The notes under the pieces were generated by a model, which ran no database searches, had not been told where the DNA came from, and saw only the letters and a list, made by a program, of their open reading frames with translations. From the IMG/VR virus record IMGVR_UViG_3300042154_000577, positions 2,634 to 66,633 of that record: a stretch of 64,000 bases of DNA; one strand, given 5' to 3'. Position numbers and translations under genes: made by a program. Below are positions 2,425 to 23,969 of this stretch, one piece after another (the stretch's first letter is position 1; each line of letters starts with the position of its first letter). The DNA is from a virus.

Positions 2425-2439
2425 CCTAACAATGTTAGG
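2425..2439. promoter_or_regulatory. Palindromic site CCTAACAATGTTAGG, copy 1 (intergenic)
   Basis: Perfect inverted repeat between promoter and AAA RBS; same core recurs elsewhere. Confidence 0.75.
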
Positions 2440-2457
2440 TATTTTGTGGAGTTAGAA

Positions 2458-3522
2458 ATGGCTGAAGTGACATTTGGTAAGAGCATCACGCTCAAGCAAG
2501 CTGCGAACCTGATTTGCAGCAACCCGGAAACCCGGTTCCTCTTGCAGGGCGAGCCCGGTATCGGCAAGTCCTCTCTGCTGGAGATGATCTCTGCACGCAT
2601 GGGCTACGAGTGTGCCTATATTGACGTACCCAATATGGACCTTGGTGACATCGCCATGCCTGTGATCGACCATGACACCAAGACGACCCGGTATTACCCC
2701 AACGCACGGTTCAAGGTGCATGAAGGCAAGCCTGTGGTTGTGATGCTCGACGAGTTCACCAAGGGTGCCGACCCGGTGAAGAACATGCTGCACCCCATGC
2801 TAGAGAAGGCAAACCCACGCTTGGGTGACATCAGCCTGAACAAGGACTGCATCGTGTTCTTGACGGGCAACCTGTCTACCGACGGTGTGGGCGACAACCT
2901 CAAGGCGCACTCAAGGAATCGACTGGTGCCTGTGACGATCAGCAAGCCCAATGCCGAGCAGTGGGTTGAGTGGGCTATCAACAAGAGCATCGAGGCCGAG
3001 GTGATTGCATGGGTGAGTCGGTTCCCGCAGGTGCTGGCATCGTACACGGACGGGGGGCAGAACGACAACCCGTACATCTACAACCCCAAGCGCAACCAGA
3101 ATGCGTTCGTGTCTCCCCGGTCATTGGAGACTGCATCTAACATTGTTAGGACACGGAGTCAGAACGACCCGGATGCGGTGATCGCTGCGCTTACTGGTGC
3201 TCTCGGTGAGTCAGGTGCTAGGGATATGCAGGCGTACATTGAGTTTGCCGACCAGCTACCAACGTGGGAGGCGACGGTGACTAAGCCCGACACAGCGCCT
3301 GTGCCTACTAGCCCCGGTGCATGTGCCATCGTGGTGTTTGGTGCTATCTCCCGTGTGACCAAGGAGACGATGACACCGTTCATGCAGTATCTGGAGCGGT
3401 TCGAGCCTGAGTGGCAGGCAGTGTTCGCAGTCAACATCGCCAAGGCCCCGGCCAAGCAGTCCATTGCGTTCAGTTGCAAGGCGTTTGCAACGTGGGTTTC
3501 GAAGAACCAAGATTTGCTCTGA
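2458..3522 (+). CDS. MoxR/dynein-related AAA+ ATPase
   Basis: Walker A GEPGIGKS, Walker B VVMLDEF, TGN sensor 1, SPRS motif; near a vWA gene. Confidence 0.9.
   Translation: MAEVTFGKSITLKQAANLICSNPETRFLLQGEPGIGKSSLLEMISARMGYECAYIDVPNMDLGDIAMPVIDHDTKTTRYYPNARFKVHEGKPVVVMLDEFTKGADPVKNMLHPMLEKANPRLGDISLNKDCIVFLTGNLSTDGVGDNLKAHSRNRLVPVTISKPNAEQWVEWAINKSIEAEVIAWVSRFPQVLASYTDGGQNDNPYIYNPKRNQNAFVSPRSLETASNIVRTRSQNDPDAVIAALTGALGESGARDMQAYIEFADQLPTWEATVTKPDTAPVPTSPGACAIVVFGAISRVTKETMTPFMQYLERFEPEWQAVFAVNIAKAPAKQSIAFSCKAFATWVSKNQDLL
3137..3149. repeat. Palindrome CTAACATTGTTAG, copy 2 (inside AAA gene)
   Basis: Exact 13-bp core. Confidence 0.8.
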
Positions 3523-3532
3523 GGAGGGTGGT

Positions 3533-3652
3533 ATGTACGTGTACTTTAGTAAGCGCTTGATTGTTGTGGAGTCTAACGTGGGGTGGGCATTGCCTTACTG
3601 GACTAAGCGCAAGCAAGCAGATAAGCGGATCAGTTGGGTTTTCAGGAGCTAG
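3533..3652 (+). CDS. Small hypothetical protein (39 aa)
   Basis: GAGGAGG RBS; MYVYFSKRL... Confidence 0.65.
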   Translation: MYVYFSKRLIVVESNVGWALPYWTKRKQADKRISWVFRS

Positions 3653-3654
3653 CA

Positions 3655-3948
3655 ATGGTATACGCACAACTGAAAGATTGGCCCGCTGGGTACGAGGAGG
3701 TGGAGTACCTAGCCAAGGAGTTGAAATACCTCGCTCCTTCGTACTCGGTACACATAGAGTGCAAGATGTTTGCTATGCAGGACGGGGTCGAGTACAGAGT
3801 AGCCATCATCCGGTGGGAGGGTAGCAACCGCTCGAACTTCAACCGTATTGAAGTATCTACGTACGAAGACATAAGCGAAGCAACTGGAATGCTCAGGTTG
3901 CTGATTGGTAACGCTAAGGCTGAGCGAAGTTTGAACATGTATTCATAA
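3655..3948 (+). CDS. Hypothetical protein
   Basis: AGGAG RBS; MVYAQLKDW... Confidence 0.75.
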   Translation: MVYAQLKDWPAGYEEVEYLAKELKYLAPSYSVHIECKMFAMQDGVEYRVAIIRWEGSNRSNFNRIEVSTYEDISEATGMLRLLIGNAKAERSLNMYS

Positions 3949-3957
3949 GGAGAGAAC

Positions 3958-5193
3958 ATGGAAGCAGAACGGAAATTGCAGAAGGCGAAGATCGCCTTGA
4001 TGCGCAACAAGAACTTTGCCCTGTTGCAGGGCGTGATGATGATCGGCAAGACGCGAGTGGATGAGCACACGCCGACTGCCTGTACTAACGGACGGGATGA
4101 GACCTACGGGCGTGAGTTCGTGACCAAGCTGCGTGACCCTGAGTTGTGCTTTGTGATTGCCCACGAGGCAGGGCACAAGATGTACCGGCACATGACCACG
4201 TGGAAGAAGCTGCACGACGAGGACCACCGGCTAGCCAACATTGCCTGTGATCACGTGATCAACCTGATGCTCAAGGACTTGGACCCCCAAGGCACGGTGA
4301 TCGCCATGCCTGTGTACCGGGATGGCCCACACAAGGGCAGGCAGATGGGCATGTGCGATGCGCGGTTCAAAGGCATGAACTCCAAGCAGGTGTTCGACAT
4401 ACTGAAAGAGGAGAAGAAGTCGGGCGGCGGTGGTAAGGGTAAAGGCCAAGGCGGTGAGGGTAGCGACGGGAACGGTGATGGTGGCATCGACGAGCACGAC
4501 TGGGATGGTGCCGACGGTATGACCGACGAGGAGAAGCGCGAGCTAGTGCGCGACATTGATCAAGCCATACGGCAGGGGTTGATGGCGCACAACAAGCAGG
4601 TGGGTGAGGGTGCGGGTGGACTGGACCGCGAGTTGCAGGAGTTGCTTGAGCCCAAGGTCAACTGGCGTGAAGTGCTGCGCGACTACGTGAAGTCCATGTG
4701 TCACAGCAAGGACGCGAGTAGCTGGCGCAGGGTTAACCGTCGGTTCCTATCCACAGGTGTTTACATGCCGAGCATGATCGGTGAGAAGGTGGGGCATTTG
4801 GTGGTTGCGATAGACACATCAGGCTCCATCGGGCAGGAGGAGTTGTCCGAGTTCCTGTCCGAGGTTAAGGGTATCGCCGAAGAGGTAAGCCCCGAGCTTG
4901 TGGACTTGATCTATTGGGACAGCGCAGTGGCTGCACATGAGACGTACACGGAGTCCGAGGTGCCTAACATTGTTAGCTCTACCAAGCCACGAGGGGGTGG
5001 GGGTACTAGCCCTAGCTGTGTGTCGGACTACCTGAAGAAGGAGCAGATCGTGCCTCAGTGCGTGATCGTCCTGACTGACGGGTACGTGGGTAGTGACTGG
5101 GGTAACGACTGGACTGCGCCTGTTATGTGGGCCATCGTAGGGGGTAACGATGTTGTCGCCCCTAACGGGAAGACGATTCACATCAAAGACTGA
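3958..5193 (+). CDS. Putative metallopeptidase + vWA domain protein (DUF2201-like)
   Basis: HEAGH zincin motif, Gly-rich linker, MIDAS DTSGS, GGGT and LTDG. Confidence 0.9.
   Translation: MEAERKLQKAKIALMRNKNFALLQGVMMIGKTRVDEHTPTACTNGRDETYGREFVTKLRDPELCFVIAHEAGHKMYRHMTTWKKLHDEDHRLANIACDHVINLMLKDLDPQGTVIAMPVYRDGPHKGRQMGMCDARFKGMNSKQVFDILKEEKKSGGGGKGKGQGGEGSDGNGDGGIDEHDWDGADGMTDEEKRELVRDIDQAIRQGLMAHNKQVGEGAGGLDRELQELLEPKVNWREVLRDYVKSMCHSKDASSWRRVNRRFLSTGVYMPSMIGEKVGHLVVAIDTSGSIGQEELSEFLSEVKGIAEEVSPELVDLIYWDSAVAAHETYTESEVPNIVSSTKPRGGGGTSPSCVSDYLKKEQIVPQCVIVLTDGYVGSDWGNDWTAPVMWAIVGGNDVVAPNGKTIHIKD
4964..4976. repeat. Palindrome CTAACATTGTTAG, copy 3 (inside vWA gene)
   Basis: Exact 13-bp core. 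Confidence 0.8.
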
Positions 5194-5203
5194 GGAGAAC
5201 AAC

Positions 5204-5443
5204 ATGATGGTTATGGAATTTAGCTATAGCAGCCTTGTGCTGTCGGCTAAGGATGCGTTAGCAATGGCTGAGATCATTCAGCGTGCAGAGAAGTACGAGA
5301 AGAAGTACCGCAAGGACGAGGTGACCAACAGCAGCAGCTACACGTACCACGTGTGGCCTAACCCCGATGAGATCACCATGAAGCTCATCAGCGACGACAT
5401 CTACCGCATGGCGAAGCTGGCGGGTAAGCCGGAGAAGGAGTAG
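5204..5443 (+). CDS. Hypothetical protein
   Basis: GAGGAG RBS; MMVMEFSY... Confidence 0.75.
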   Translation: MMVMEFSYSSLVLSAKDALAMAEIIQRAEKYEKKYRKDEVTNSSSYTYHVWPNPDEITMKLISDDIYRMAKLAGKPEKE

Positions 5444-5446
5444 CCC

Positions 5447-5683
5447 ATGCCAAGGCGCAAAAAAACATATCTACTTTTGCGGGGGAAGTTCGACACCTAC
5501 ATTGTTGTCGAACGCAGATGGTACGACTTCTCGGGTATAGCCAAGGCGCGAGGGCGCAACCAGAAATGGTCTATCGCCGCGCAGAGTGATGACCACGGAA
5601 TGTTAATGGCAATGGCGAGCCTTACAGAAAAACATGTAAAGCTCGAAGTGAACAACCTTATCTTTGGACCAACAAGATGCTAG
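5447..5683 (+). CDS. Hypothetical protein
   Basis: AAGGAG RBS; 78 aa. Confidence 0.7.
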   Translation: MPRRKKTYLLLRGKFDTYIVVERRWYDFSGIAKARGRNQKWSIAAQSDDHGMLMAMASLTEKHVKLEVNNLIFGPTRC

Positions 5684-6120
5684 ACCCAGAACTGAAGATC
5701 AAACTGCTGGTAGCTGAACGACCTTGGGAGCAAGAGCATCAGCACTCTGAGGAGTGGGTTGATGAGGGCACAGGGTACACGTGCACGATCTGGCGGCACC
5801 CGACGCTAGGCCATCTGTGTGGGTACGTAGGCATACCCAAAGGGCACCGCTGCTGTGGGCTTGGGTACAACGATATGAGTGACATCGAGGTTCATGGTGG
5901 GCTGACGTACTCAGAGGTAGACGATGAGCGGCAGTTGCATGTGTTTGGGTTCGATGCTGGTCACAGTGGAGATTATTCACCGGGGCTGGCATTGACCATG
6001 TTGAGAGTTACTGGGGAGTTCAATAGAGTGAGCAGCGGCGAAGGAGTTACGTACCGTACGTGGGCGTACATGAAAGAGCAAGTGTTGAGTTTGTGTAATC
6101 AATTGAAACTGAAGGAGTAA
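5677..6120 (+). CDS. Conserved phage protein of unknown function
   Basis: GHLCGYV...VHGGLTYS...GFDAGH signature recalled from many phage proteins. Confidence 0.8.
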   Translation: MLDPELKIKLLVAERPWEQEHQHSEEWVDEGTGYTCTIWRHPTLGHLCGYVGIPKGHRCCGLGYNDMSDIEVHGGLTYSEVDDERQLHVFGFDAGHSGDYSPGLALTMLRVTGEFNRVSSGEGVTYRTWAYMKEQVLSLCNQLKLKE

Positions 6121-6124
6121 TGAA

Positions 6125-6976
6125 ATGAGTATTAGTGCATCAGCAGTGTTAGTGGAACTGAACATCAGTGTGTGGCCTGCGTCGAAGATCGACCGGGAGA
6201 CAACGGAGCTAACCAATACAAACGCAGGGGCAGTGCGTGACGCATCGCAGACCAAGAAGAACCTGTTCGCAGGTACCGGCTTGCGCAAGGACATCGAGAA
6301 GTTCGCAGCTAGGGCTCGGCTGTACCACAACCTGCACACGTTGCCGTGGGCTGACAAGGGCGAGCGCATGTTGCCGACCAAGTTGTTCATGGAGTACAAG
6401 CAGACCATGAATGGGTTTGAGCGGACGTTCGATGTCATGTGCCAGAACTTCTTTGTGCAGTACCCGCGTCTGGTTGCTGAAGCGCCTACCAACCTAGGAG
6501 CACTATACAAGGCAAGTGACTACCCTGACATTGAAGAAGTCAAGCAAAAGTTTGGGTTCCGTCGATCAGTCAACCCGATGCCCGACTCCGGCGACTTTCG
6601 CTTGGACATACCAGCAGAGGACTTGGATGATGTGCGAGCGGAGTTCCGCGACAAGTTCGACGAGCGGCTGAAGGAAGCTATGCGTGCACCGTGGGACAAG
6701 CTGCATTCAGTGCTAGTAGGTGTATCTGACAAGCTGAAGGAAGGGAACGACGGAGACAAGAAGCGCTACCACGACTCACTGTTGACCAACCCACTGGAGT
6801 TGTGTGCGCTGCTGACTAAGCTCAACGTGACCAACGACCCACTGTTGGAAGAGGCACGGCGACAGGTAGAGCTAACAATGTTAGGGGCTAACTTGGACAG
6901 CATCAAAGAGGACGCTGACTCACGCAGCGAGTTGAAGTCCAAGGTCGATTCGATCTTGGGTAAGTTTAATTGGTAG
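6125..6976 (+). CDS. DUF3150-like protein
   Basis: LVELNISVW...TLPW...DYP...KF pattern; helical C-terminus; MoxR/vWA neighbourhood. Confidence 0.7.
   Translation: MSISASAVLVELNISVWPASKIDRETTELTNTNAGAVRDASQTKKNLFAGTGLRKDIEKFAARARLYHNLHTLPWADKGERMLPTKLFMEYKQTMNGFERTFDVMCQNFFVQYPRLVAEAPTNLGALYKASDYPDIEEVKQKFGFRRSVNPMPDSGDFRLDIPAEDLDDVRAEFRDKFDERLKEAMRAPWDKLHSVLVGVSDKLKEGNDGDKKRYHDSLLTNPLELCALLTKLNVTNDPLLEEARRQVELTMLGANLDSIKEDADSRSELKSKVDSILGKFNW
6872..6884. repeat. Palindrome CTAACAATGTTAG, copy 4 (inside DUF3150-like gene)
   Basis: Exact 13-bp core. Confidence 0.8.
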
Positions 6977-6985
6977 GAGAAACAC

Positions 6986-7855
6986 ATGAACATAGCAAAC
7001 AACGCGATGGATTTGCCTAACGTACACGCACCTGAAACCAAAGAGCTTGTCAGTGCGTACAAGGTAACGTCCGTCCTCGCCACAGTCATATGGGAACTGG
7101 CATTGAAAAACCCGATGTGGACGTTCAAGGCCACAAACTTTAGCTGGGCAGAGCCTACCCATACCCAGTATAGAACGATGGTAGTAAACAAGTTCGTAGT
7201 AAGCCACAACTGGGAGACGCTGGGCTCTATTGAGAAAGGGTACAAATCGGGGCCGATCATTGAAATCGAAAGTCACCGAATAACCACACGCCAAAACAAC
7301 TACAGGACCGACAACTCTGAGAAGGCTATAGCCAAAGTCCGAAAGACATTCAAGCCCCGATCAGTGCTAGAAGTAGCAGCAGAGGCAGTAGACACAGCCG
7401 ACACTGTTGTTCGACAAGAGCATCACGGCAAGGACCGAGTAGTACGCAAGTACCAAGAAGAGATTAAACAGAAAGCCATCGACTACGTGACCAAAGGTCC
7501 GGGGTACGCCTTGTTCTTGGAGTACGCAAAACAGCAGGGGGACAAGAGCGTTGCGAACAGCTTGGAGATGATGCAGATTGCAACGGACGAACTGTCTACT
7601 ATCGAAGGAATTAAGACCGCTATGGGAGCTAAAAAGTCTGCGCTTATTGTTGTGGATGAGGGAAAGTACCTAGTCAAAATCAATGACAATGTTCAACTCT
7701 ACGACGATACTACCCTCCCCGCCGAGTTCCGTGGGAAGCTGGGCTTGCTCAAGCTAGTGAACGAGAAACAGTTCATCACGGATGTCGGATGTAGGGTCAA
7801 CAAAGAAATCTATGTACTGAAACTGGACGAACAGGAAGCCAAGGAACCAACATGA
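6986..7855 (+). CDS. Hypothetical phage protein (289 aa)
   Basis: Long ORF, AGGAG RBS. Confidence 0.85.
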   Translation: MNIANNAMDLPNVHAPETKELVSAYKVTSVLATVIWELALKNPMWTFKATNFSWAEPTHTQYRTMVVNKFVVSHNWETLGSIEKGYKSGPIIEIESHRITTRQNNYRTDNSEKAIAKVRKTFKPRSVLEVAAEAVDTADTVVRQEHHGKDRVVRKYQEEIKQKAIDYVTKGPGYALFLEYAKQQGDKSVANSLEMMQIATDELSTIEGIKTAMGAKKSALIVVDEGKYLVKINDNVQLYDDTTLPAEFRGKLGLLKLVNEKQFITDVGCRVNKEIYVLKLDEQEAKEPT

Positions 7856-8121: not shown

Positions 8122-8273
8122 AGATCAACATGCTCACCCGAGTGCGTAAGCACTTCAACAGCGGTATGCGCCACATCGACCGCCACAACCAACGCGCATG
8201 GGTCAAGTCCGTGCGCTTCCTTGGAACCAAGTGGCTGATACATCCAGCTAACATTATTGGGAGAAGCAAATGA
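8118..8273 (+). CDS. Small basic hypothetical protein (51 aa)
   Basis: Manual translation MKINMLTRVRKHF...IIGRSK*; ATGA overlaps at both ends. Confidence 0.7.
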   Translation: MKINMLTRVRKHFNSGMRHIDRHNQRAWVKSVRFLGTKWLIHPANIIGRSK

Positions 8274-12828: not shown

Positions 12829-12992
12829 AAACGAAACAAGAAATCAAAGAGGAAATCAGCGATTTGTACGCAGCCCAAAAAGCACTTAGCGAAGCTGCGG
12901 AGTGGGTTCACAAGAACCAAATGGAAGCAATGAAAAAGATGATTGCGTTAAACCAAATGCTCAAAGATATGGAGAATGACAATGATCACTGA
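12825..12992 (+). CDS. Small coiled-coil protein (55 aa)
   Basis: Manual translation MKTKQEIKEEISDL...ENDNDH*; AAGGAG RBS, ATGA overlap. Confidence 0.7.
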   Translation: MKTKQEIKEEISDLYAAQKALSEAAEWVHKNQMEAMKKMIALNQMLKDMENDNDH

Positions 12993-13185
12993 AGACGACG
13001 AGTTTGAGAGGATTGAGCGCGAGATTGAGCAACGCAAAAAAAAGGTTGATGATGATCTTATGGTGGTCTACTCATTGCGGTTGACCAAGAGCCAACGGGT
13101 CAAGCTGCTGCAGCTTGGCGGACCCAAGTGGATACGTGAGCAGATAGAGAAAGCAATGGAGAAACCAAATGACAACAGGAATTGA
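12976..13185 (+). CDS. Putative ribbon-helix-helix DNA-binding protein
   Basis: VVYSLRLT strand followed by KLLQLGGPKWIREQIE. Confidence 0.6.
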   Translation: MTMITEDDEFERIEREIEQRKKKVDDDLMVVYSLRLTKSQRVKLLQLGGPKWIREQIEKAMEKPNDNRN

Positions 13186-13375
13186 GTTCTTAAAGCTACC
13201 CAAGAGGCGCATGGGGCGAGGCCCCGGCAAGAAGCCCACGCTGACCAATGTTAGCCTACGCATTCCTCAGGAGGTGCTGGACTACTTTACGGCGCACTAC
13301 CCATACACCAAGCAGGCAGAGATGCGAAGAGCCCTTAGTGAGTTCGTTACCAGAGAGAAAGGCAAAGGCAAATGA
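13169..13375 (+). CDS. BrnA-antitoxin-like RHH protein
   Basis: GRGPGKKP...VSLRIPQEVLDYF...QAEMRRALSEFV matches the BrnA C-terminal pattern. Confidence 0.65.
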   Translation: MTTGIEFLKLPKRRMGRGPGKKPTLTNVSLRIPQEVLDYFTAHYPYTKQAEMRRALSEFVTREKGKGK

Positions 13376-13587
13376 GCGACCCAGTGAATCACCCTGACCA
13401 CTACAAGGTAGGGGGCATTGAGACCATTGACTTTATCGAAGCCAAGCAACTGACGTACAACATCGGCAACGTGGTCAAGTACATCACCCGTGCCGACCAC
13501 AAAGGCAATCAGTTGCAGGACTTACAGAAGGCACAGTGGTATCTGACCCGAGAGATACAGCGCATACAAAAGAACACAGCAGCCTAA
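13372..13587 (+). CDS. DUF3310 / SaV-like protein
   Basis: DPVNHPDHY...GIETIDFI...GNVVKYITRA..KG...DLQKAQWYL. Confidence 0.92.
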   Translation: MSDPVNHPDHYKVGGIETIDFIEAKQLTYNIGNVVKYITRADHKGNQLQDLQKAQWYLTREIQRIQKNTAA

Positions 13588-13597
13588 CAATGTTAGG
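13583..13597. promoter_or_regulatory. Palindromic site CCTAACAATGTTAGG, copy 5
   Basis: Perfect 15-bp copy overlapping the DUF3310 stop, just before a terminator. Confidence 0.75.
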
Positions 13598-13606
13598 GTA
13601 AACACC

Positions 13607-13628
13607 AACCCGCTTCGGCGGGTTTTTT
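13607..13628 (+). terminator. Rho-independent terminator
   Basis: AACCCGC-TTCG-GCGGGTT plus T tract. Confidence 0.9.
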
Positions 13629-13638
13629 ACGTCTGTAC

Positions 13639-13667
13639 TTGTACAAAGTCAAATGCCATGCTATAGT
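13639..13667 (+). promoter_or_regulatory. Sigma70-type promoter for the replication operon
   Basis: TTGTAC-N17-TATAGT with extended -10 TG. Confidence 0.7.
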
Positions 13668-14352: not shown

Positions 14353-16175
14353 ACATCCTCACCCTAGACTTTGAGACCTACTACTCGCAAGAGTTCAGTC
14401 TCAGCAAGATCACCAATGAGGAGTACGTGCGCTCCTTTGAGTTTGAGGTCATTGGTGTGTCGGTGCAGGTAGATGACGGAGCGCCTGAGTGGTTCACCGG
14501 GACTATGGCCGAGACCGCTGTGTTTTTGCGGCAGTTCGATTGGGAGAATAGCCTAGCCCTAGCTCACAATGCTGCGTTCGATGCGTCTATCCTTACGTGG
14601 ATATTCGGTATCAAGCCGAAGGGCTGGCTGGACACGTTGTCTATGGGTCGTGCACTGCACGGCACTGAGGTCGGTGGTAGCTTGGCTGTACTTGCAAAGC
14701 ACTACGAGGTTGGTACCAAAGGCACTGAGGTAGTCACGGCGAAGGGACTGCGCCGTAAGGACTTCCCTGAAGAGCAGCTAGCAGAGTACGGCAAGTATTG
14801 CTGCAACGATACGGCCATGACCTATGCCCTATTCCAGAAGATGAGCGTTGGGTTCCCGCCGAGCGAGTTGCGGCTCATTGACTTGACCGTTCGCATGTTC
14901 TCTGAGCCGGTGCTGCAGTTGGACGAGGACATTTTGAAGTCGCACTTGTTCGAGGTTAAGACGAAGAAAGCCGAACTGCTTAGCAAGATGCTGATCGAGA
15001 AGGACCAGCTAATGAGCAACCCTCAGCTTGCAAAGGTGCTTGAGGAGTTGGGTGTGGTTGTGCCTATGAAGGTCAGCCCAGCCAACGGCAAACAGACGTA
15101 CGCATTCTCTAAGACCGACGAGGAGTTTAAGGCGTTGCTTGAGCATGACAACGTGATCGTGCAGGCCATCGTCGCTGCGCGGCTTGGGGTCAAGTCAACC
15201 ATCGAGGAGACACGGACTGAGAGGTTCATTGGGATTGCCCAGCGCGGTCCGATGCCAGTTCCGCTACGCTACTACGCTGCACACACAGGTCGATGGGGCG
15301 GTGACGACAAGCTCAACCTGCAGAACCTGCCGCGCAAATCTCCACTGAAGTATTCCATCATTGCCCCCGATGGGTACGTGATACTGGACTCAGACTCCTC
15401 GCAGATTGAAGCCCGTACGCTGGCATGGCTAGCTGGGCAGAATGACTTGGTTGAAGCATTCGATAAGGGCGAGGATGTGTACTGCATCATGGCGTCAGCC
15501 ATCTACGGACGCCAGATTACCAAGGCTGACGGGGCGGAGAGACAGGTAGGCAAATTAACGGTTCTCGGATGCGGCTATGGCATGGGCGCAGCAAAGTTCA
15601 AGCTGCAGCTAAAAAACTCTGGCGTTGACGTTGAGCTAGACGAGGCCAAGCGCATCATTGATACTTACCGGGCTACCTACCCTAACATTGTTAGGCTGTG
15701 GGCAGAAGCTGGCGACATGCTTAGGGCCATGCTGCGGAATGCACAGACAACTCTGGGCCGCGATGGACTGCTAGAAGTGGACGGGGCCAACGGCGTCAAG
15801 CTACCCAACGGGCTGTATCTCAAGTATCCTAACCTGCGCGTACGTGAGGACGAGAAGACAGGCAAGGTCGAGGTTGTGTACGACACCAAGAAGGGCAAAG
15901 CAGTTATCCCTAACCGCATATACGGTGGTAAGGTAATCGAGAACGTATGCCAAGCACTTGCCCGCATCATCATAGGTGAGCAGATGCTACGGATCGCAAA
16001 GAAGTACCGGGTGGTCATGACCGTGCACGATGCGATTGCGGTCATTGCACCCAAAGCCGAGGCTGAAACAGCCCAAGAATATGTAGAGATGTGCATGCGG
16101 CTCCGCCCCTCATGGGCACCGGAGCTACCCCTCAACTGTGAATCTGGATACGGAGATAGTTATGGAGACTGTTAA
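14349..16175 (+). CDS. polA: Family A DNA polymerase with 3'-5' exonuclease
   Basis: Exo DFETY and AHNAAFD; TGRW, NLQN; motif A DSSQIEAR; motif B RQVGKLTVLGCGYG; motif C VHD. Confidence 0.95.
   Translation: MNILTLDFETYYSQEFSLSKITNEEYVRSFEFEVIGVSVQVDDGAPEWFTGTMAETAVFLRQFDWENSLALAHNAAFDASILTWIFGIKPKGWLDTLSMGRALHGTEVGGSLAVLAKHYEVGTKGTEVVTAKGLRRKDFPEEQLAEYGKYCCNDTAMTYALFQKMSVGFPPSELRLIDLTVRMFSEPVLQLDEDILKSHLFEVKTKKAELLSKMLIEKDQLMSNPQLAKVLEELGVVVPMKVSPANGKQTYAFSKTDEEFKALLEHDNVIVQAIVAARLGVKSTIEETRTERFIGIAQRGPMPVPLRYYAAHTGRWGGDDKLNLQNLPRKSPLKYSIIAPDGYVILDSDSSQIEARTLAWLAGQNDLVEAFDKGEDVYCIMASAIYGRQITKADGAERQVGKLTVLGCGYGMGAAKFKLQLKNSGVDVELDEAKRIIDTYRATYPNIVRLWAEAGDMLRAMLRNAQTTLGRDGLLEVDGANGVKLPNGLYLKYPNLRVREDEKTGKVEVVYDTKKGKAVIPNRIYGGKVIENVCQALARIIIGEQMLRIAKKYRVVMTVHDAIAVIAPKAEAETAQEYVEMCMRLRPSWAPELPLNCESGYGDSYGDC
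15681..15695. repeat. Palindrome CCTAACATTGTTAGG, copy 6 (inside polymerase gene)
   Basis: Perfect 15-bp copy. Confidence 0.8.
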
Positions 16176-17516: not shown

Positions 17517-17517
17517 T

Positions 17518-17775: not shown

Positions 17776-17777
17776 CT

Positions 17778-19441: not shown

Positions 19442-19465
19442 CAATGTACAATCCTGTGATATAGT
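19438..19465 (+). promoter_or_regulatory. Sigma70-type promoter
   Basis: TTGACA-N16-TATAGT with extended -10 TG; followed by hairpin GTAGGC/GCCTAC (19473-19489). Confidence 0.75.
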
Positions 19466-19516
19466 CAGTTCCGTAGGCAGGTAGCCTACACCTTCATTAA
19501 CCATTAGGAGTATTAG

Positions 19517-19939
19517 ATGACTGAAGAAACTTCAGAGGGAAAGAGTTCCCCAAATTTAGACATGCTGGCGAACGTCTACATCAAGATTCGTGACGCCCGG
19601 ACTACGCTCAAAGCGGAGTTCACTACGCAGGACTCAGTTCTACAAGAACAGATGGACTTGCTGGAAGCCAACATGCTCGATGCGTGCAAAGACCTGAATG
19701 CAAGCAGCATCAAAACCCAACACGGCACAATCATTCGCTCGGTCAAGTCACGGTACTGGACGAACGATTGGGATTCGATGTACACCTTTATCAAAGAGCA
19801 AGGTGCATTTGGCCTGTTAGAGAAACGACTTCATCAGACAAACATGAAAGATTTTCTCGTTGAGAATCCTGACCTTCTGCCTATGGGCTTGAATGTCGAG
19901 AGTGAGTACACCGTGGTAGTTAGACGCCCAAAACCCTGA
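19517..19939 (+). CDS. Conserved replication-module protein
   Basis: Coiled coil YIKIRD..., then SIKTQHGT, DWD...FI, LLEKR. Confidence 0.8.
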   Translation: MTEETSEGKSSPNLDMLANVYIKIRDARTTLKAEFTTQDSVLQEQMDLLEANMLDACKDLNASSIKTQHGTIIRSVKSRYWTNDWDSMYTFIKEQGAFGLLEKRLHQTNMKDFLVENPDLLPMGLNVESEYTVVVRRPKP

Positions 19940-19948
19940 AAGAATCAA

Positions 19949-20869
19949 ATGAGCAACATTACAGTTATTGACCAAGACCTTCCCGACTTCCTGCAAGCCT
20001 CGGGCATCAGCGAACTCACCAAGTCCCTCATGGGCAGCACGGGCACGAAGCGCATCGTGCCCAAGAACGGCATCTTCCGCAAGGAGATTGGCGGCAAGGA
20101 GATGGGCAAGGTCAAGGGCGACCTGAACGTCATCATCGTCAACTCGTCCCCCAAGGTTGGGCGCATCTTCTACGCAGCGCAGTGGACCCCCGACGCAAAG
20201 CCAGTTCCCCCCGATTGCTTCTCCAACGATGGCAATGTGCCCGACGCTGGGTCTGCGAACAAACAGGCTGACCGCTGCGACTCGTGCCCCCAGAACATCA
20301 AAGGTTCGGGTATGGGTAACTCAAAGGCTTGCCGCTACTCCCGTCGCATCGCCGTGCTGCTGGAAGATGACTTTGGCACCGCGCTTGAGGGTGAGGTCTA
20401 TCAGATGAACTTGGCGTCCAAGTCTCTGTTTGGTGAGAGTCCATCTGCTACTGAGCACGTATTTGAGAGCTACGTCAAGTATCTGGGCAACAACGGCAAG
20501 AGTCTTGATTGGTACATCACCAAGCTGAGCTTCAACGAGAACAACGACAACCAGTCGATTCTGTTCACTGCTGTGGAGCACATCAAGCGCCACCACTACG
20601 ACGTTATCACTAAGGTCGGCAACACCCCCGAGGTGCAGAAGCTGGTGACTATGACGCCGTTCCAAGCGCAGACAGACGGGGTTGCCAAACTGGAAGCACC
20701 AAAGGCGGAAGCGCCTAAGCCGGTAGCGCCAGCCCCCAAGGCTGCGAAGGTGGAAGCCGAGGAGGTCGCTGAGCCAGTCAAGCGTGAAAGCAAGAAGGTA
20801 GAAGTCCCGCCCCCTGCGGCTAAGCGCGACTTGACCTCCGTGCTCGCTGCATGGAGCGACGAGGAGTAA
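19949..20869 (+). CDS. Putative ssDNA-binding/annealing protein
   Basis: PDCFS, CDSCPQN, KAC motifs; Pro/Ala/Lys linker; acidic tail WSDEE; position in replication module. Confidence 0.6.
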   Translation: MSNITVIDQDLPDFLQASGISELTKSLMGSTGTKRIVPKNGIFRKEIGGKEMGKVKGDLNVIIVNSSPKVGRIFYAAQWTPDAKPVPPDCFSNDGNVPDAGSANKQADRCDSCPQNIKGSGMGNSKACRYSRRIAVLLEDDFGTALEGEVYQMNLASKSLFGESPSATEHVFESYVKYLGNNGKSLDWYITKLSFNENNDNQSILFTAVEHIKRHHYDVITKVGNTPEVQKLVTMTPFQAQTDGVAKLEAPKAEAPKPVAPAPKAAKVEAEEVAEPVKRESKKVEVPPPAAKRDLTSVLAAWSDEE

Positions 20870-20872
20870 CCT

Positions 20873-21112
20873 ATGAGCTACGGATACAGCCAGCGGCTAG
20901 TCGATGCAAACAACAATGCAGACGTTAGTTCGCGTGGCGTGTATCTGGGTAGTCGTTGCATAAAGCTCGGCATCTCGGTCAGTGAAGTAGCGGACAGGCT
21001 TGGCGTAAGTCGGGCCACCGTCTACAACTGGTTCTGGGGGTCAGTGACTCCCAGCGCTAGCCACACCGCCAAGATCAACAAGTATCTGCACGCACTCAGA
21101 AACCGCAAGTAA
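20873..21112 (+). CDS. Cro/XRE-type HTH regulator
   Basis: ISVSEVADRLGVSRATVYNWFWG...P. Confidence 0.88.
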   Translation: MSYGYSQRLVDANNNADVSSRGVYLGSRCIKLGISVSEVADRLGVSRATVYNWFWGSVTPSASHTAKINKYLHALRNRK

Positions 21113-21122
21113 CACGACAACT

Positions 21123-23969
21123 ATGTCCGACTTTGACCTACTCGATGCGGTGCTACCCTCAGAAGGGCGCTACTGTGTGATGGGGATTGGGCGGTACCCA
21201 GACCAGAAGTTTGTAGATACTAGAGAAGAACTTGATACCATAGCCGGGCAGTTTGTAGCTAAGGGTGTGGATGCGTATTTTGGTTGTGCCAAATACGGCC
21301 TCCTGAACAACCGCACGCACGCCAACGCCACGTACTTCCGCGCACTATGGATGGATATCGACTGCGGCCCCACGAAGGCAGCACCAGATGAGAAGGGCGT
21401 TATCAAGGGTTACATCGACCAAGCAACAGGGCTTAGCGAATTTCAAAAGTTTTGCACATCTGTCGGTTTGCCAAGACCTATCCTAGTGAGTTCCGGTTAT
21501 GGGATTCACGCCTACTGGCTACTTAAAGAGACGGTCTCCCGTGCAGAATGGGAACCACTCGCCGAACGACTCCGAGAGCTTTGCATTGAGCAGAGTTTTA
21601 TCGTGGACCCGTCGGTGTTTGAAGCATCGCGCATACTGCGCATCCCCGGCACGTTTAACTTCAAGCAGAGCGAGCCACAACCCGTAGAGGTGATCAACGA
21701 GCGCAGTGCGCGTATAGAGTACGCACAACTGAAAGAGCTACTAGGGGCAGCGGACCCCAAGGAAGAGCGGCCTGACTTTATCCCCCGTGCTATGAGCCCC
21801 ATGATGGAAGCTCTGATGGGCAACAAGATCAAGCGGTTCAAGACCATTATGATGAAGTCGGCTAACGGCACGGGCTGTAACCAGCTACTGCACTGCTTTG
21901 AGCACCAAGCAGATGTAGACGAGCCGTTGTGGAGGTCGGCGTTATCCATCGCCGCATTTTGCATTGATAAGGACAAGGCAGCACACAAGCTGTCGAGTAA
22001 CCATCCGGGCTATGACCCCGACGAGGTAGAGCGCAAGGTAGATCAGATCGTGAAGCATGGAGGCCCACACCGCTGCATCACGTTTGAGAAGCTGAACCCC
22101 ACAGGGTGCATCGACTGCCAGCATAAGGGGAAGATCAAGTCCCCCATCGTGCTTGGTGTTGAGATAGAGGAGGCTGATGACGCCGACAACGAAGTGACCG
22201 TAGAGACCGAGAAGGGGGCGGAGACCGTAACCATACCTGAGTATCCGTTTCCATTTTTCCGAGGGAAGAACGGTGGTGTCTATAGGAAGCCTATGGAGGA
22301 CGAGTCAGACCCTGAGTTGGTCTATGAGCACGACTTGTACGTGGTGAAGCGTATGCGGGACCCTACGGCGGGAGAAGTCATTCTGTTCAGGCTGCACCTA
22401 CCGCACGATGGCGTTAGAGAGTTTGCGATATCCACGGCAGCGATATCGTCCAAGGATGAGTTGCGTAAGGCGCTAGCCCAACAAGGTGTTATGGCACACC
22501 ACAAGCAGTATGAGAACTTGGCCGTGTACGTGGTCACGTTCATCAAGAACCTACAGTATTCAAAGAAAGCAGACATTATGAGAACACAATTCGGATGGGT
22601 AGAAGGTGACAGCAAGTTCATCATGGGTGACCGAGAGATCACTAAGGACGGGGTGTTCTACAGCCCGCCGACAACAGCCACAGAGTTCTTTGCAGACAAG
22701 ATTCACCCCAAGGGTACTTTCGACAAGTGGAAGGAGGTGTTTAACCTGTACGCCCTGCCGGGTATGGAGCCCCATGCGTTTGCAGCACTCACAGCGTTCG
22801 GCTCACCCCTGATGAAGTTCACTGGTTTGGACGGGGCAATCATCAACGTGATCTATGAAGAGGCTGGTTCTGGTAAGTCCACCATCTTGCGTATGTGCAA
22901 CAGCGTCTACGGCCAACCCAAGGAGTTGATGGCGATTGAGAAGGACACGCTCAACGCAAAGATGCAGCAGCTAGGGGTGATGAACAACCTGCCCAACACA
23001 ATCGACGAGATCACAAACATGCCGCCCAAGGAGTTCTCGGACTTGGCTTACGGCATCAGTCATGGTCGGGGCAAGAACCGCATGACCGGCTCGGCTAACG
23101 CACTGCGCCTGAACAACACCTCATGGCAGAACATGACCTTGGCATCAGCTAACGCTAGCTTTCACGAGAAGCTGTCAATGCTCAAGAACACGCCCGATGG
23201 TGAGTCCGTGCGCTTGATGGAGTACAAGATTGAGCCTAACAATGTTATTGGTGTGGCTCGGGGCAAGGAGATGTTTGACCACCAACTCAATGAGAACTAC
23301 GGCCATGCTGGTGAGACATACATAAGCTGGCTGATCAACAACTTGGAAGAGGCCAAGGAGCTAGTCAAGAAGGTTCAGGCCCGCATTGACAAAGAGGTGC
23401 AGTTCACTAGCCGAGAGCGTTTCTGGTCGGCAGAGGCCGCATGCAACATTGCTGGTGGTTTGATAGCTAGGCAGCTAGGACTGCACGACTACGATATGGC
23501 CGCTGTGTACGCATGGCTCAAGGGTATGCTGTCTGAGATGCGCCATGATGTGAAGCCCCCGATCACTAACCCAGCGTCTGCACTCGGCGAGTTCATCAAC
23601 GCCAACATCTTCAACACGCTGGTGGTCAACGGTGAAGTGGATGCTCGGAGTAACTTGATCTCCATGCCTAGCCTAGAGCCACGTGGGGAGCTACTGATAC
23701 GCTACGAGCCAGATACCAAGCACCTGTATATTTCCGCCAAGAAGTTCAAGGACTTCTGCGTAGAGCGGCAAGTGAACTACAAGAACCTGCTGACCAAGCT
23801 CACTGAGGTAAAGGTGTTCATGGAAGCCACAAACAAGCGCATGGCGAAGGGGATGAAGGTCGTATCACCTGCGGTGCGCGTACTCAAGTTCAACGCAGCC
23901 AACTCTGAGTTCCTGCAAGTAGACGCACTGTTGGCGAATGAAGATCGAGACAGTCTCGTATCAGGTTAA
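21123..23969 (+). CDS. Primase-helicase (RepB-like primase + DUF927-like NTPase)
   Basis: WMDID, SGYGIHAYW, RILRIPGTFN, Cys cluster, GSGKST, TIDE. Confidence 0.9.
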   Translation: MSDFDLLDAVLPSEGRYCVMGIGRYPDQKFVDTREELDTIAGQFVAKGVDAYFGCAKYGLLNNRTHANATYFRALWMDIDCGPTKAAPDEKGVIKGYIDQATGLSEFQKFCTSVGLPRPILVSSGYGIHAYWLLKETVSRAEWEPLAERLRELCIEQSFIVDPSVFEASRILRIPGTFNFKQSEPQPVEVINERSARIEYAQLKELLGAADPKEERPDFIPRAMSPMMEALMGNKIKRFKTIMMKSANGTGCNQLLHCFEHQADVDEPLWRSALSIAAFCIDKDKAAHKLSSNHPGYDPDEVERKVDQIVKHGGPHRCITFEKLNPTGCIDCQHKGKIKSPIVLGVEIEEADDADNEVTVETEKGAETVTIPEYPFPFFRGKNGGVYRKPMEDESDPELVYEHDLYVVKRMRDPTAGEVILFRLHLPHDGVREFAISTAAISSKDELRKALAQQGVMAHHKQYENLAVYVVTFIKNLQYSKKADIMRTQFGWVEGDSKFIMGDREITKDGVFYSPPTTATEFFADKIHPKGTFDKWKEVFNLYALPGMEPHAFAALTAFGSPLMKFTGLDGAIINVIYEEAGSGKSTILRMCNSVYGQPKELMAIEKDTLNAKMQQLGVMNNLPNTIDEITNMPPKEFSDLAYGISHGRGKNRMTGSANALRLNNTSWQNMTLASANASFHEKLSMLKNTPDGESVRLMEYKIEPNNVIGVARGKEMFDHQLNENYGHAGETYISWLINNLEEAKELVKKVQARIDKEVQFTSRERFWSAEAACNIAGGLIARQLGLHDYDMAAVYAWLKGMLSEMRHDVKPPITNPASALGEFINANIFNTLVVNGEVDARSNLISMPSLEPRGELLIRYEPDTKHLYISAKKFKDFCVERQVNYKNLLTKLTEVKVFMEATNKRMAKGMKVVSPAVRVLKFNAANSEFLQVDALLANEDRDSLVSG

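What the first reader, a model, noticed from the sequence alone, without database searches (positions are those of the whole stretch)
2425..23249. Dispersed 13-bp palindrome CTAACA(A/T)TGTTAG confined to the early/replication arm, mostly inside genes
Seen: exact cores at 2426, 3137, 4964, 6872, 13584 and 15682, a one-mismatch copy at 23236 and a weaker one at 1881. I found none by eye in the 40-kb late arm. A uniform-base estimate gives about 0.002 chance copies per 64 kb. The coding copies are read in different frames and orientations (SNIVR, PNIVS, LTMLG, PNIVR, PNNVI), so the constraint is on DNA, not protein. Only two copies are at gene boundaries. Inference: a protein-binding array coating one arm, more like matS/parS-type organising sites than a classic operator (it shares the TnACAnTGTnA layout of E. 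coli matS, as analogy only). Possible roles: roadblock silencing of the early arm, DNA entry, anchoring or partition. Candidate binders are the RHH proteins (12976-13375), the HTH (20873) or a host factor.
Basis: partly seen in the sequence, partly recalled or inferred. Interest (0 to 1): 0.82.

Follow-up and report, generated by a model that had tools for sequence, protein, structure and literature searches.

The report
Conserved palindrome array in phage early region
A lake-water phage and many uncultured relatives carry an exactly repeated 13-15-base palindrome along their early genes, most likely docking sites for a still unidentified regulator of early transcription, a kind of repeat array seen before in other phages but never explained.

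Summary
The window holds 6 exact CTAACAWTGTTAG copies (0 expected). The whole 66.6-kb phage genome holds 13. Seven of them lie in the 2.6 kb just left of the window, and none lie in the 40-kb late arm.

The element is a self-contained inverted repeat, (C)CTAAC-AWT-GTTAG(G). It is conserved in at least 61 of 80 related IMG/VR loci and confined to one span of at most 16 kb in five complete relatives. It is held at synonymous sites, and in some lineages symmetric variants replace it (2-nt centre, TGACA arms), even at the same position inside a gene.

Family-wide, 70% of sites sit at gene boundaries. They peak at +30..+69 and -90..-70 from predicted sigma-70 starts and 10-19 nt before terminators, and never over core promoters.

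Invariant arms, a free centre and no flank covariation favour a dimeric DNA-binding protein over an RNA hairpin. The RHH and HTH candidates do not track the motif. The first gene (ORF1) subfamily does, but only imperfectly.

The closest known analogue is the unexplained 17-bp dyad repeat of Cluster O mycobacteriophages. I class this as a new variant of a known kind. The binder and mechanism are unproven.

The parts
2426..2438 (.). Exact site (CTAACAATGTTAG) in the 5' leader of the MoxR-type AAA ATPase gene. Its centre lies about +37 from the predicted start of the promoter at 2360-2388 and 26 nt before the ATG at 2458.
   Evidence: same position in relatives
3137..3149 (.). Exact site inside the AAA ATPase gene (read as SNIVR).
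   Evidence: The 17-nt block is invariant among 5 aligned genomes while flanking synonymous sites vary.
4964..4976 (.). Exact site inside the DUF2201/VWA gene (PNIVS). Its position is conserved across the family and the motif class there switches with the genome.
6872..6884 (.). Exact site near the 3' end of the DUF3150-like gene (6125-6976; read as LTMLG).
13584..13596 (.). Exact site overlapping the TAA stop (13585-13587) of the DUF3310 gene. It is the first element of a conserved junction of site, terminator and promoter.
13609..13628 (+). Terminator-like hairpin (CCCGC-TTCG-GCGGG) plus T run, 12 nt after the site.
13639..13667 (+). Sigma-70-like promoter (TTGTAC-17-TATAGT) for the endonuclease/DNA polymerase module. 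The site centre lies about -84 from its predicted start.
   Evidence: read by eye; family pattern
15682..15694 (.). Exact site inside the DNA polymerase gene (PNIVR).
23236..23248 (.). One-mismatch copy, CTAACAATGTTAT, in the primase gene. The final-G-to-T change it carries is the commonest one-mismatch change in the family (22 of 79 unique one-mismatch copies).
1881..1893 (.). Two-mismatch copy, probably chance. The other two-mismatch copy, at 8248-8260, is likewise probably chance.
   Evidence: 1.2 expected at up to 2 mismatches
2360..2388 (+). Strong sigma-70-like promoter (TTGACA-17-TACAAT, 11 of 12) upstream of the site at 2426.
12976..13185 (+). RHH-like protein 1, a first-reader candidate binder. 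Relatives were found in only 15 of 81 sources, all class I.
13169..13375 (+). RHH-like protein 2 (cluster 4), a first-reader candidate. It is present in 54 of 81 sources, including those without arrays. The protein is near-identical (differing only at the C-terminal tail) in genomes with different motif classes.
20873..21112 (+). XRE-type HTH protein, a first-reader candidate. It is a core gene whose recognition helix is invariant whether or not an array is present.

Best explanation
The repeats are binding sites on double-stranded DNA for a sequence-specific, two-fold symmetric (dimeric) DNA-binding protein. The protein is most likely phage-encoded and fast-evolving, and it controls host-RNA-polymerase transcription of the early arm.

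Each site is two 5-7-bp arms, (C)CTAAC and GTTAG(G), around an uncontacted A/T-rich centre. Sites avoid core promoters. They sit in 5' leaders (+30..+69), about 80 bp upstream of promoters, just before terminators at operon ends, and at fixed places inside genes.

The inferred action is therefore not classical promoter occlusion. It is either elongation roadblock (stoperator-like) or pairing of upstream and downstream sites by looping. Either would shut down or time the early arm, most densely around the first gene.

Shown here: the array exists, it is confined to the early arm, it is under DNA-level selection, its variants are symmetric, and it is placed relative to predicted promoters and terminators. 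Inferred: that a protein binds, that it binds duplex DNA, and that the effect is repression. The binder is not identified. The hypervariable first gene (ORF1, genome 301-867, left of the window) is the best lead.
For: (1) Statistics. The genome has 13 exact copies against about 0 expected. In ORFs there are 8 against 0.142 in codon shuffles.

(2) Family conservation. 61 of 80 related loci carry at least one exact 13-mer, 414 copies in 1.06 Mb. In 5 complete relatives, 63 of 64 core sites lie in one span of at most 16 kb.

(3) The pattern expected of a dimer on duplex DNA:
- The arms are invariant and the centre is free: A 165, T 150, G 3, C 1; GCT, GAC and GAT in the distant relative L280.
- 52 of the 79 unique one-mismatch copies differ at the two outermost positions.
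- Nothing is conserved beyond -2 to +1.
- Flanks show base preference, not complementarity: non-C-G complementary pairs are 12 against 22.7 expected.
- Transitions that would keep G-U pairs in plus-strand RNA are not favoured (5 against 16 mirror changes).

(4) Class switches are symmetric (TAACA/TGTTA to TGACA/TGTCA; GTAACA/TGTTAC) and occur at the same positions, forcing a peptide change in DUF2201.

(5) Placement, using 226 predicted promoters and 691 sites:
- 71 sites at +30..+69 (about 6.5 expected).
- 52 sites at -90..-70 (about 4.6 expected).
- 0 sites at -20..+29 (about 8 expected).
- 43 sites have a terminator starting within 60 nt downstream (8 expected), 35 of them at 10-19 nt.

(6) The leftmost site lies about 76 bp upstream of the predicted first early promoter, so transcripts from that promoter do not contain it (promoter read by eye).

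(7) The site class around ORF1 follows the ORF1 subfamily. All 14 c25 loci have 5-7 one-nt-centre sites and no two-nt-centre sites. 65 of 70 c53 loci have two-nt-centre sites (61 of the 70 contigs are new). All 7 c44 loci have none. L063 has a backbone 83-90% identical to L061 and L068, but a 39-43% identical ORF1 and different arms.
Against: - No binding was tested, and no DNA-binding fold was found for ORF1. Its AF2 model (pLDDT 78.5) is all-helical with no significant match.
- Type I sites stay invariant in genomes whose ORF1 is the unrelated c44 type, so c25 cannot be their only binder.
- No conserved early protein shows convergent changes in the two TGACA lineages.
- One- and two-nt centres coexist in single genomes. 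That is awkward for one rigid dimer and easy for a hairpin.
- The two-nt centre is biased AA over TT on the coding strand (88 against 21), although the bias reverses near T runs and may reflect coding constraint.
- In the cultured distant relative MinM2, the analogous palindrome starts 4 nt after stop codons and its centre is 29-30 nt before start codons. Such spacing suits an RNA or translation-linked role.
- Promoters and terminators are consensus predictions, and many counted sites are orthologous copies, so the enrichment figures overstate the number of independent events.
Confidence: 0.45

Rival explanations
1. The element acts as an RNA hairpin in early transcripts (6-7-bp stem, 3-4-nt loop). 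A sequence-specific RNA-binding protein or endoribonuclease would recognise it and set intercistronic processing, mRNA stability, antitermination or translation.
For: - Predicted hairpins fold at -5.4 to -8.9 kcal/mol.
- Sites sit in 5' leaders 15-39 nt before start codons (100 against about 50 expected), right after stop codons, and 10-19 nt before terminators. This resembles nutL/nutR placement (recalled).
- In MinM2 the palindrome GGTTCAGNCTGAACC starts 4 nt after the stop and its centre lies 29-30 nt before the ATG in most early intergenic gaps.
- 3-nt and 4-nt loops coexist in one genome.
- The two-nt centre has a strand bias.
Against: - The loop is the least conserved part and the stem sequence is invariant, the reverse of known hairpin-protein recognition (the rule itself is recalled).
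- There is no covariation that would extend the stem.
- G-U-preserving changes show no excess.
- The leftmost conserved site lies upstream of the first predicted promoter.
- The centre A/T ratio shows no strand preference in the main class (165 against 150).
Confidence: 0.25
2. The sites bind a host protein (a global regulator or nucleoid protein) that the phage exploits. Under this reading the motif classes reflect different hosts.
For: - No phage protein tracks all classes.
- Type I sites persist whatever the ORF1 type.
- The core TAACA-N-TGTTA is very widely conserved.
Against: - Closely related backbones carry different classes, and some genomes carry two classes interleaved.
- A 97%-complete relative has almost no sites.
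- The host is unknown. The five MAG contigs that matched are labelled with five unrelated taxa and give no host, so the host chromosome could not be scanned.
Confidence: 0.12
3. The sites are hairpin-type promoters (as in phage N4) or other signals for an unrecognised phage RNA polymerase or primase.
For: - A 5-7-bp stem with a 3-nt loop is the geometry recalled for N4 early promoters.
- The sites cluster at one genome end.
- The AAA/VWA module is about 30% identical to that of N4-like phages.
- The 2967-aa virion protein shares 150 aa with a 'virion RNA polymerase' PHROG.
Against: - No polymerase family hit appears in any scanned ORF.
- The PHROG match covers only profile positions 2098-2250, outside the polymerase core as I recall it. 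There is no DxDGD motif and no PDB polymerase match.
- Good sigma-70-like promoters precede early genes.
- Sites placed 10-19 nt before terminators make no sense as promoters.
Confidence: 0.06
4. The array organises DNA rather than transcription. Possibilities are matS/parS-like anchoring, staged genome entry, or recombination hot spots that shuffle early gene cassettes (PeSL-like).
For: - Site density falls with distance from the left end: 7 in 2.5 kb, 4 in the next 7 kb, 2 in the next 9 kb.
- The early left region is hypervariable and sites lie at gene boundaries.
- PeSL motifs in T4-type phages are repeated promoter/stem-loop units at cassette borders (PMC2839356 and PMC4122927; titles and starts of abstracts only).
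Against: - No ParB/MatP-type protein was found in the scanned ORFs.
- Contig ends in relatives are assembly ends, so the physical left end is unknown.
- Fixed intragenic sites under purifying selection are not explained by shuffling.
- Placement tracks promoters and terminators.
Confidence: 0.08

Closest known systems
17-bp dyad repeat of Cluster O mycobacteriophages (5'-TGTTCGG-NNN-CCGAACA), function unknown (PMC4351075; passages read)
   Same: - Inverted arms separated by 3 bp, with invariant arms.
- The centre is variable and mostly A/T (TTT or AAA).
- Dozens of exact copies.
- Denser toward one genome end.
- About one third of copies are inside ORFs and the rest are at or near gene boundaries.
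- The phage is not obviously temperate.
- The authors likewise predict a dimeric DNA-binding protein and a role other than promoter control.
   Different: - The sequence, phage lineage and host are unrelated.
- Here there are 13-19 copies rather than more than 30.
- Here the array is strictly confined to the early arm (63 of 64 sites in 5 complete relatives).
- Here the sites are placed relative to promoters and terminators.
- Here there are several co-evolving classes, sometimes two in one genome.
Stoperators of Cluster A mycobacteriophages (L5 gp71-type repressor) (PMC9283540, passages read; PMC6550527, listing only)
   Same: Many dispersed 13-bp sites at promoters and in short intergenic gaps of transcribed regions. 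The proposed action is on elongation. Specificities diversify among relatives.
   Different: Stoperators are asymmetric, oriented with transcription, bound by a monomer, spread over the whole genome, and belong to temperate phages. Here the sites are palindromic, occupy one arm only, and no integrase or repressor was found in the scanned ORFs.
Intergenic palindrome GGTTCAG-N-CTGAACC of Synechococcus phage MinM2 / Planktothrix phage Pag-Yong1 (found here; no paper on these phages turned up among the 15 listed results)
   Same: The phage shares the MoxR, VWA and DUF3150 early genes and a giant virion protein. It has a 15-bp palindrome with a free centre, with 33 copies at up to 1 mismatch, enriched in the early arm.
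   Different: The arm sequence differs. The copies are almost all intergenic at fixed distances from stop and start codons, and they also occur in the late arm (12 of the 33 copies).
PeSL promoter/stem-loop cassettes of T4-type phages (PMC2839356 and PMC4122927; titles and starts of abstracts only)
   Same: Repeated composite signals at the borders of variable early genes. The site-terminator-promoter junction found here resembles a composite motif.
   Different: PeSLs are promoter plus terminator units, not a short exact palindrome, and they are not found inside conserved genes.
matS/MatP, parS/ParB, KorB OB sites (recalled)
   Same: 13-16-bp palindromes dispersed over one replicon domain.
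   Different: The arms differ from the recalled matS consensus. No MatP/ParB family hit was found. The sites follow gene boundaries and transcription signals.
MtvA (MazE-like antitoxin) operator TAACATTGTTA on a Pseudomonas plasmid (PMC11826091; passages read)
   Same: An identical 11-bp core, shown by EMSA to bind a small dimeric regulator.
   Different: It is a single operator in an unrelated plasmid. No AbrB/MazE family hit was found in the phage. The match is probably coincidence.

Membership tests
Cluster O-type dispersed dyad repeat (a descriptive kind, not a homologous family) | Short inverted repeat with invariant arms and a variable 3-bp centre | tested here: met
   definition from PMC4351075
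Cluster O-type dispersed dyad repeat (a descriptive kind, not a homologous family) | Many copies, both intergenic and intragenic, denser toward one end | tested here: met
   13 copies, 7 of them in the first 2.5 kb; 70% at boundaries or intergenic and 30% deep in ORFs
Cluster A stoperators | Asymmetric site whose orientation follows transcription | tested here: not met
   The site is a palindrome and the centre is A 165 against T 150. Only the two-nt-centre class shows a bias, which may come from coding constraint.
Cluster A stoperators | Temperate phage with an immunity repressor, and sites over the whole genome | tested here: not met
   No integrase or repressor family hit in the scanned ORFs; no site in the late arm
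Cluster A stoperators | Bound protein blocks elongating RNA polymerase | not testable with these tools
   Needs EMSA and reporter or run-off assays
matS/MatP | Match to the matS consensus (recalled as GTGACRNYGTCAC) and presence of MatP | tested here: not met
   The arms are CTAACA/TGTTAG; no MatP family hit for the RHH-like or other ORFs. The consensus is recalled, not checked.
parS/ParB or KorB OB | A ParB/KorB-family protein encoded with the sites | tested here: not met
   No ParB family hit in the scanned ORFs
N4-type hairpin promoters | 5-7-bp stem with a 3-nt loop (recalled) | tested here: met
N4-type hairpin promoters | Virion or phage single-subunit RNA polymerase that reads them | tested here: not met
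   The only match is 150 aa to a region of the vRNAP PHROG outside the polymerase core as I recall it. A very divergent polymerase cannot be excluded.
lambda-type nut/boxB | Placed downstream of promoters and upstream of terminators | tested here: met
   (predicted signals only)
lambda-type nut/boxB | Loop bases conserved and read by an arginine-rich N-type peptide; stem free to covary (recalled) | tested here: not met
   The loop or centre is the least conserved part and the stem is invariant. No N-like protein was searched for.

The most novel reading that the evidence does not exclude
The array and the hypervariable first gene form a previously unrecognised specificity system of lytic phages. 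ORF1, an all-helical protein with no known fold, occurs in subfamilies c25, c53 and others. Under this reading it is a new kind of sequence-specific DNA binder whose alleles co-evolve with genome-wide palindrome classes (1-nt or 2-nt centre; TAACA or TGACA arms).

Binding across the first-entering, first-transcribed 15 kb would switch off the early arm. It could also silence incoming relatives of the same class. That would be an immunity-like exclusion code diversifying among co-occurring lake phages, with some genomes carrying two orthogonal codes.
Probability: 0.12. Interest if true: 0.8.

Novelty: new variant of a known kind. Interest (0 to 1): 0.6.

Why it matters
Dispersed exact dyad repeats have been noted in a few phage groups (Cluster O mycobacteriophages) and remain unexplained. 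This work shows the same kind of element in a large, abundant, uncultured freshwater phage lineage and in a cultured cyanophage relative.

It adds comparative evidence that the earlier case lacked:
- strict confinement to the early arm;
- selection at synonymous sites;
- symmetric class switching at fixed positions;
- defined placement relative to promoters and terminators;
- a candidate cognate gene.

That makes the open question of what such arrays do directly testable. MinM2/Pag-Yong1 can be grown, and the 15-mers and small early proteins are easy to test in vitro. If the array is an elongation-level or looping switch with evolving specificity, it would extend stoperator-type control from temperate actinophages to lytic phages of other hosts.

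Tried and rejected
- **Expression data.** The look-up of sequencing runs listed 24 DNA holders (lake, river and groundwater metagenomes) and no RNA holder.
- **Rfam.** A scan of the left 6 kb gave only two sub-threshold sRNA hits caused by the hairpin-plus-terminator shape. No tRNA was found.
- **Earlier scan notes.** None exist for this genome.
- **Motif in the literature.** A full-text search for the 13-mers and the 11-mer cores found no phage paper. The one biological hit, the MtvA operator, is taken as coincidence.
- **Host identification.** The one genome-contig scan gave 5 MAG contigs labelled with five unrelated taxa (an archaeon, Bacillota, Alphaproteobacteria, Caulobacteraceae, Clostridiaceae) and no usable host.
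- **N4-like reading.** Rejected for lack of a polymerase.
- **Binder search by presence or absence** of ortholog clusters, by divergence between close genomes of different class, and by convergent columns in two TGACA lineages: nothing convincing.
- **RHH cluster 4, RHH1 and the HTH.** All rejected as specificity determinants.
- **ORF1.** Homologues are all 'hypothetical' (172 hits). The AF2 model matched nothing in Foldseek-PDB or the VIA wide search (best Z 6.7, generic helices). ESM Atlas gave only unnamed viral clusters.
- **Conserved early proteins c1, c2, c6.** No PDB sequence relatives and no NCBIfam hits.
- **Half-site enrichment in G000.** None: 28 in the early arm and 55 in the late arm.
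- **HTVC027P.** It shares only structural genes and has no comparable palindrome. Keyword searches of PMC12753301 and PMC9599517 found no mention of promoters or palindromes; their supplements were not opened.
- **Strand-bias test of the two-nt centre.** Inconclusive because of coding constraint.

Full report
**1. The observation**

The window is bases 2634-66633 of a single 66,633-bp virus record. The copy at 23236 has one mismatch. The copies at 1881 and 8248 have two mismatches and may be chance, since 1.2 are expected at that threshold.

The whole genome has 13 exact copies. Seven lie in the 2,633 bp left of the window, at genome 154, 371, 893, 959, 1200, 1716 and 2464. The 40-kb late arm has none, even at up to 2 mismatches. 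Synonymous-codon shuffling of the early ORFs gives 0.142 copies on average (maximum 2 in 1000 shuffles), against 8 observed.

**2. The phage**

PHROG, Pfam and NCBIfam scans give the following layout.
- A plus-strand early and replication arm: MoxR-type AAA ATPase, DUF2201/VWA protein, DNA polymerase I, PD-(D/E)XK exonuclease, helicase, and DUF927 primase.
- A minus-strand late arm: terminase, portal, capsid and tail fibres.
- A 2967-aa internal virion protein with a PDB match to 9sfn_G.

No RNA polymerase, integrase, repressor or ParB family was hit. Good sigma-70-like promoters and intrinsic terminators are present.

The nearest cultured phages are distant. The DNA polymerase is 38% identical to Rhizobium phage RHph_TM3_14A. 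The terminase is 45-57% identical to HTVC023P-type pelagiphages, DSL-LC04 and MinM2/Pag-Yong1. The VWA protein is about 30% identical to those of N4-like phages. The DNA is held by lake, river and groundwater metagenomes, and no RNA run is listed.

**3. Anatomy of the element**

A logo of 334 unique sites shows no information beyond positions -2 (A or G), -1 (C) and +1 (G). The element is therefore self-contained: CCTAACAWTGTTAGG. The centre base is A in 165, T in 150, G in 3 and C in 1 unique copies.

Of 79 unique one-mismatch copies, 52 differ at the two outermost positions. 13 differ at the positions next to the centre, giving CTAAC-TTT/AAA-GTTAG. In a distant relative (L280) the arms CTAAC/GTTAG are kept while the centre is GCT, GAC, GAT or ATT. 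The invariant unit is therefore two 5-bp arms separated by 3 bp.

Flanking bases do not covary. Complementary pairs other than C-G number 12 against 22.7 expected.

**4. Conservation and variants**

Eighty related loci were fetched through the DUF2201 protein.
- 61 of them hold at least one exact 13-mer, 414 copies in 1.06 Mb.
- In five complete relatives, 63 of 64 core sites lie within one span of at most 16 kb in a 62-64-kb genome.

Other lineages carry symmetric variants:
- TCTAACA-AA-TGTTAGA, with a two-nt centre;
- TCTGACAAATGTCAGA and CCTGACAWWTGTCAGG;
- GGTAACA-NN-TGTTACC;
- AGGGTTAACCCT.

Several genomes carry two classes interleaved (L021, L053, L058, L063, L068).

Inside the DUF2201 gene the site position is conserved while the class changes. 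Class I genomes read xCTAACATTGTTAGy as (P/S/A)NIVS. Three genomes read TCTGACATTTGTCAGA as SDICQT. Array-poor genomes encode SNIVQS or SNIIQS with other codons. In the AAA gene a 17-nt block is invariant among five genomes while about 14 of the 40 preceding columns vary. This is direct evidence for selection on the nucleic acid.

**5. Placement**

Family-wide, 366 of 525 unique sites (70%) lie near ORF ends or between genes, against 47% of random positions. 30% are deep in ORFs.

Relative to 226 predicted sigma-70 promoters, site centres pile up at +30..+69 (71 against about 6.5 expected) and at -90..-70 (52 against about 4.6). They are absent from -20..+29 (0 against about 8). Forty-three of 691 sites have a terminator starting within 60 nt downstream (8 expected), 35 of them at 10-19 nt.

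One junction recurs in many genomes: gene stop, site, about 10 nt, terminator, about 10 nt, TTGACA-type promoter, lying upstream of the endonuclease and polymerase module. The site class at that junction follows the genome's class. In the window it occupies 13584-13667.

The site at 2426 lies at about +37 of a near-consensus promoter and 26 nt before the AAA start codon. The leftmost genome site lies about 76 bp upstream of the predicted ORF1 promoter (read by eye; the same arrangement appears in relatives).

All promoters and terminators are predictions, and many counted sites are orthologous copies. The enrichments are therefore real as patterns but not as independent counts.

**6. A cultured analogue**

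Synechococcus phage MinM2 has the same 65,014-bp record length as, and identical hit statistics to, Planktothrix phages Pag-Yong1 and Pra-JY27. It shares the MoxR, VWA and DUF3150-like genes and a giant virion protein.

It has its own 15-bp palindrome, GGTTCAG-N-CTGAACC. There are 25 copies at up to 1 mismatch in the 39-kb piece and 8 in the other 25.7 kb. In the early arm most copies are intergenic. In the regular early-arm gaps the palindrome typically starts 4 nt after the stop codon, and its centre is 29-30 nt (up to 36) before the annotated ATG.

A search on the names of these phages listed no paper about them. Keyword searches of two pelagiphage papers found no mention of promoters or palindromes.

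**7. Duplex DNA or hairpin**

For a protein on duplex DNA:
- the arms are invariant and the centre is free;
- each flank has its own base preference without complementarity;
- the centre shows no strand preference in the main class;
- transitions that would keep G-U pairs in plus-strand RNA are not favoured (5 against 16);
- one conserved site lies upstream of the first promoter.

For a hairpin (RNA or single-stranded DNA):
- one-nt and two-nt centres coexist in the same genome;
- the two-nt centre is AA far more often than TT on the coding strand (88 against 21), though mostly in coding DNA and reversed near T runs;
- the sites lie next to ribosome-binding sites, stop codons and terminators, most regularly in MinM2;
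- the predicted hairpins are stable, at -5.4 to -8.9 kcal/mol.

I weigh this as about 0.45 for a phage-encoded dimeric binder on duplex DNA, plus 0.12 for a host protein binding the same way. I give 0.25 to an RNA hairpin, 0.06 to a polymerase or primase signal, and 0.08 to a DNA-organising, entry or shuffling role.

**8. Who binds**

- **RHH-like cluster 4 (13169-13375).** It is found in 54 of 81 sources, including array-poor ones. The protein is near-identical (differing only at the C-terminal tail) in L059 (TGACA class), L053 (two classes) and L060 (class I), and its strand residues do not follow the class.
- **RHH-like protein at 12976-13185.** It has relatives in only 15 sources.
- **HTH at 20873-21112.** It is a core gene whose helix VSRATVYNWFWG is essentially invariant in class I, two-class and TGACA-carrying genomes. 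It is also unchanged in a 97%-complete genome with a single core site in 61 kb.

No conserved early protein shows residues shared by the two independent TGACA lineages.

The one correlate is the first gene, ORF1 (genome 301-867; 172 database relatives, all unnamed). It comes in alignable subfamilies c25 and c53 and an unrelated type, c44.
- All 14 c25 loci have 5-7 one-nt-centre sites and no two-nt-centre site around the gene.
- c53 loci have two-nt-centre sites there.
- All 7 c44 loci have none.

In a second sample, 65 of 70 c53 loci carry two-nt-centre sites (61 of the 70 contigs are new). Only 2 of the 197 loci found through the class I 15-mer carry one. L063 shares an 83-90% identical backbone with L061 and L068, but its ORF1 is only 39-43% identical and its arms differ.

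Against ORF1 as the binder:
- gene and nearby sites are physically linked, so linkage alone can explain part of the association;
- the AF2 model (pLDDT 78.5) is a helical protein with no fold match;
- class I sites stay under constraint in c44 genomes.

I rate ORF1 as a lead, not a finding.

**9. Comparison with known systems**

The closest match in kind is the 17-bp repeat of Cluster O mycobacteriophages. It has 7-bp inverted arms, a 3-bp mostly TTT/AAA centre, 34 copies with invariant arms, about one third inside ORFs, and higher density toward one end. The phages are not temperate, the function is unknown, and the authors predict a dimeric DNA-binding protein acting on something other than initiation (PMC4351075, passages).

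Cluster A stoperators share the dispersed 13-bp sites in transcribed regions. They differ in being asymmetric, oriented, bound by a monomer and genome-wide in temperate phages (PMC9283540, passages).

The resemblances to nut/boxB, N4 hairpin promoters, matS and parS rest on recalled definitions. Each fails at least one defining feature that I tested (see the membership table). The element is thus a new variant of a known but unexplained kind, not a member of any characterised system.

**10. Verdict**

The array is real, strongly non-random, family-wide and under selection. It is tied to transcription signals of the early arm rather than being mostly intragenic. A regulator-binding array acting on elongation or by looping is the best-supported mechanism (0.45). 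The binder is unknown, and the RNA-hairpin rival remains serious. Interest is 0.6.

Noticed in passing
window 24212-33115 (- strand): A 2967-aa internal virion protein. It has an Ala/Pro/Gln-rich repeat at the N-terminus, two HExxH motifs (residues 1030 and 1863), a GHKL-type ATPase stretch (1236-1340), and a DarB-like C-terminal third. A 150-aa stretch matches both PDB 9sfn_G and the C-terminal part of a 'virion RNA polymerase' PHROG. MinM2 has a syntenic 2803-aa gene annotated RelA/SpoT.
   Followed up: partly
L278 (genome) 870-1750, left of the window: About 880 nt without a convincing ORF. It holds two terminator-like hairpins, a 34-nt direct repeat (starting near 1003 and 1070) whose CCAGTTCTC core recurs after terminators in relatives, a promoter-like site, and a very AT-rich stretch (1440-1500). 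It could be an origin or a small-RNA region. Relatives show TGTTACG half-site repeats 12-16 nt apart just right of the equivalent site.
   Followed up: no
L284 and L286 (Synechococcus phage MinM2, OQ594354.1): This cultured cyanophage carries 33 copies (at up to 1 mismatch) of GGTTCAG-N-CTGAACC. In the early arm they form a repeated intergenic cassette: stop, 4 nt, palindrome, about 12 nt, GGAG, ATG. I found no description of this in the papers searched.
   Followed up: partly
window 2446-7855: A conserved early module: unknown 309-aa protein, MoxR-type AAA ATPase, VWA/DUF2201 protein, DUF3150-like protein (72% mean identity across 24 relatives) and a 289-aa unknown. The AAA/VWA pair is shared at about 30% identity with N4-like phages. 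None of the unknowns has a PDB sequence relative.
   Followed up: partly
L278 2592-2831 (window -41..198): A 79-aa protein with two CxxC pairs (CTCVEC...CLWC), present in 35 related loci. By recalled pattern it looks like a TraR/DksA-type zinc finger that could act on host RNA polymerase. It gave no Pfam hit at E up to 0.01.
   Followed up: no
L015 and L016 (IMG/VR relatives): These array-poor relatives carry 6 copies of AGGGTTAACC, the core of a different 12-bp palindrome (AGGGTTAACCCT), and two tandem copies of the c44-type first gene.
   Followed up: no
loci L013, L018, L053, L059, L068, L078-L080: Cluster 55 proteins (154-208 aa) near the left end appear to contain two RHH-like repeats in one chain, judged by eye. 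The L059 and L068 alleles are nearly identical to each other and differ from those in class I genomes, but L061 lacks the gene.
   Followed up: partly
window 13169-13375: The widely conserved RHH-like protein has an N-terminal GRGPGKKP stretch resembling an AT-hook (recalled motif), just before the predicted strand.
   Followed up: no
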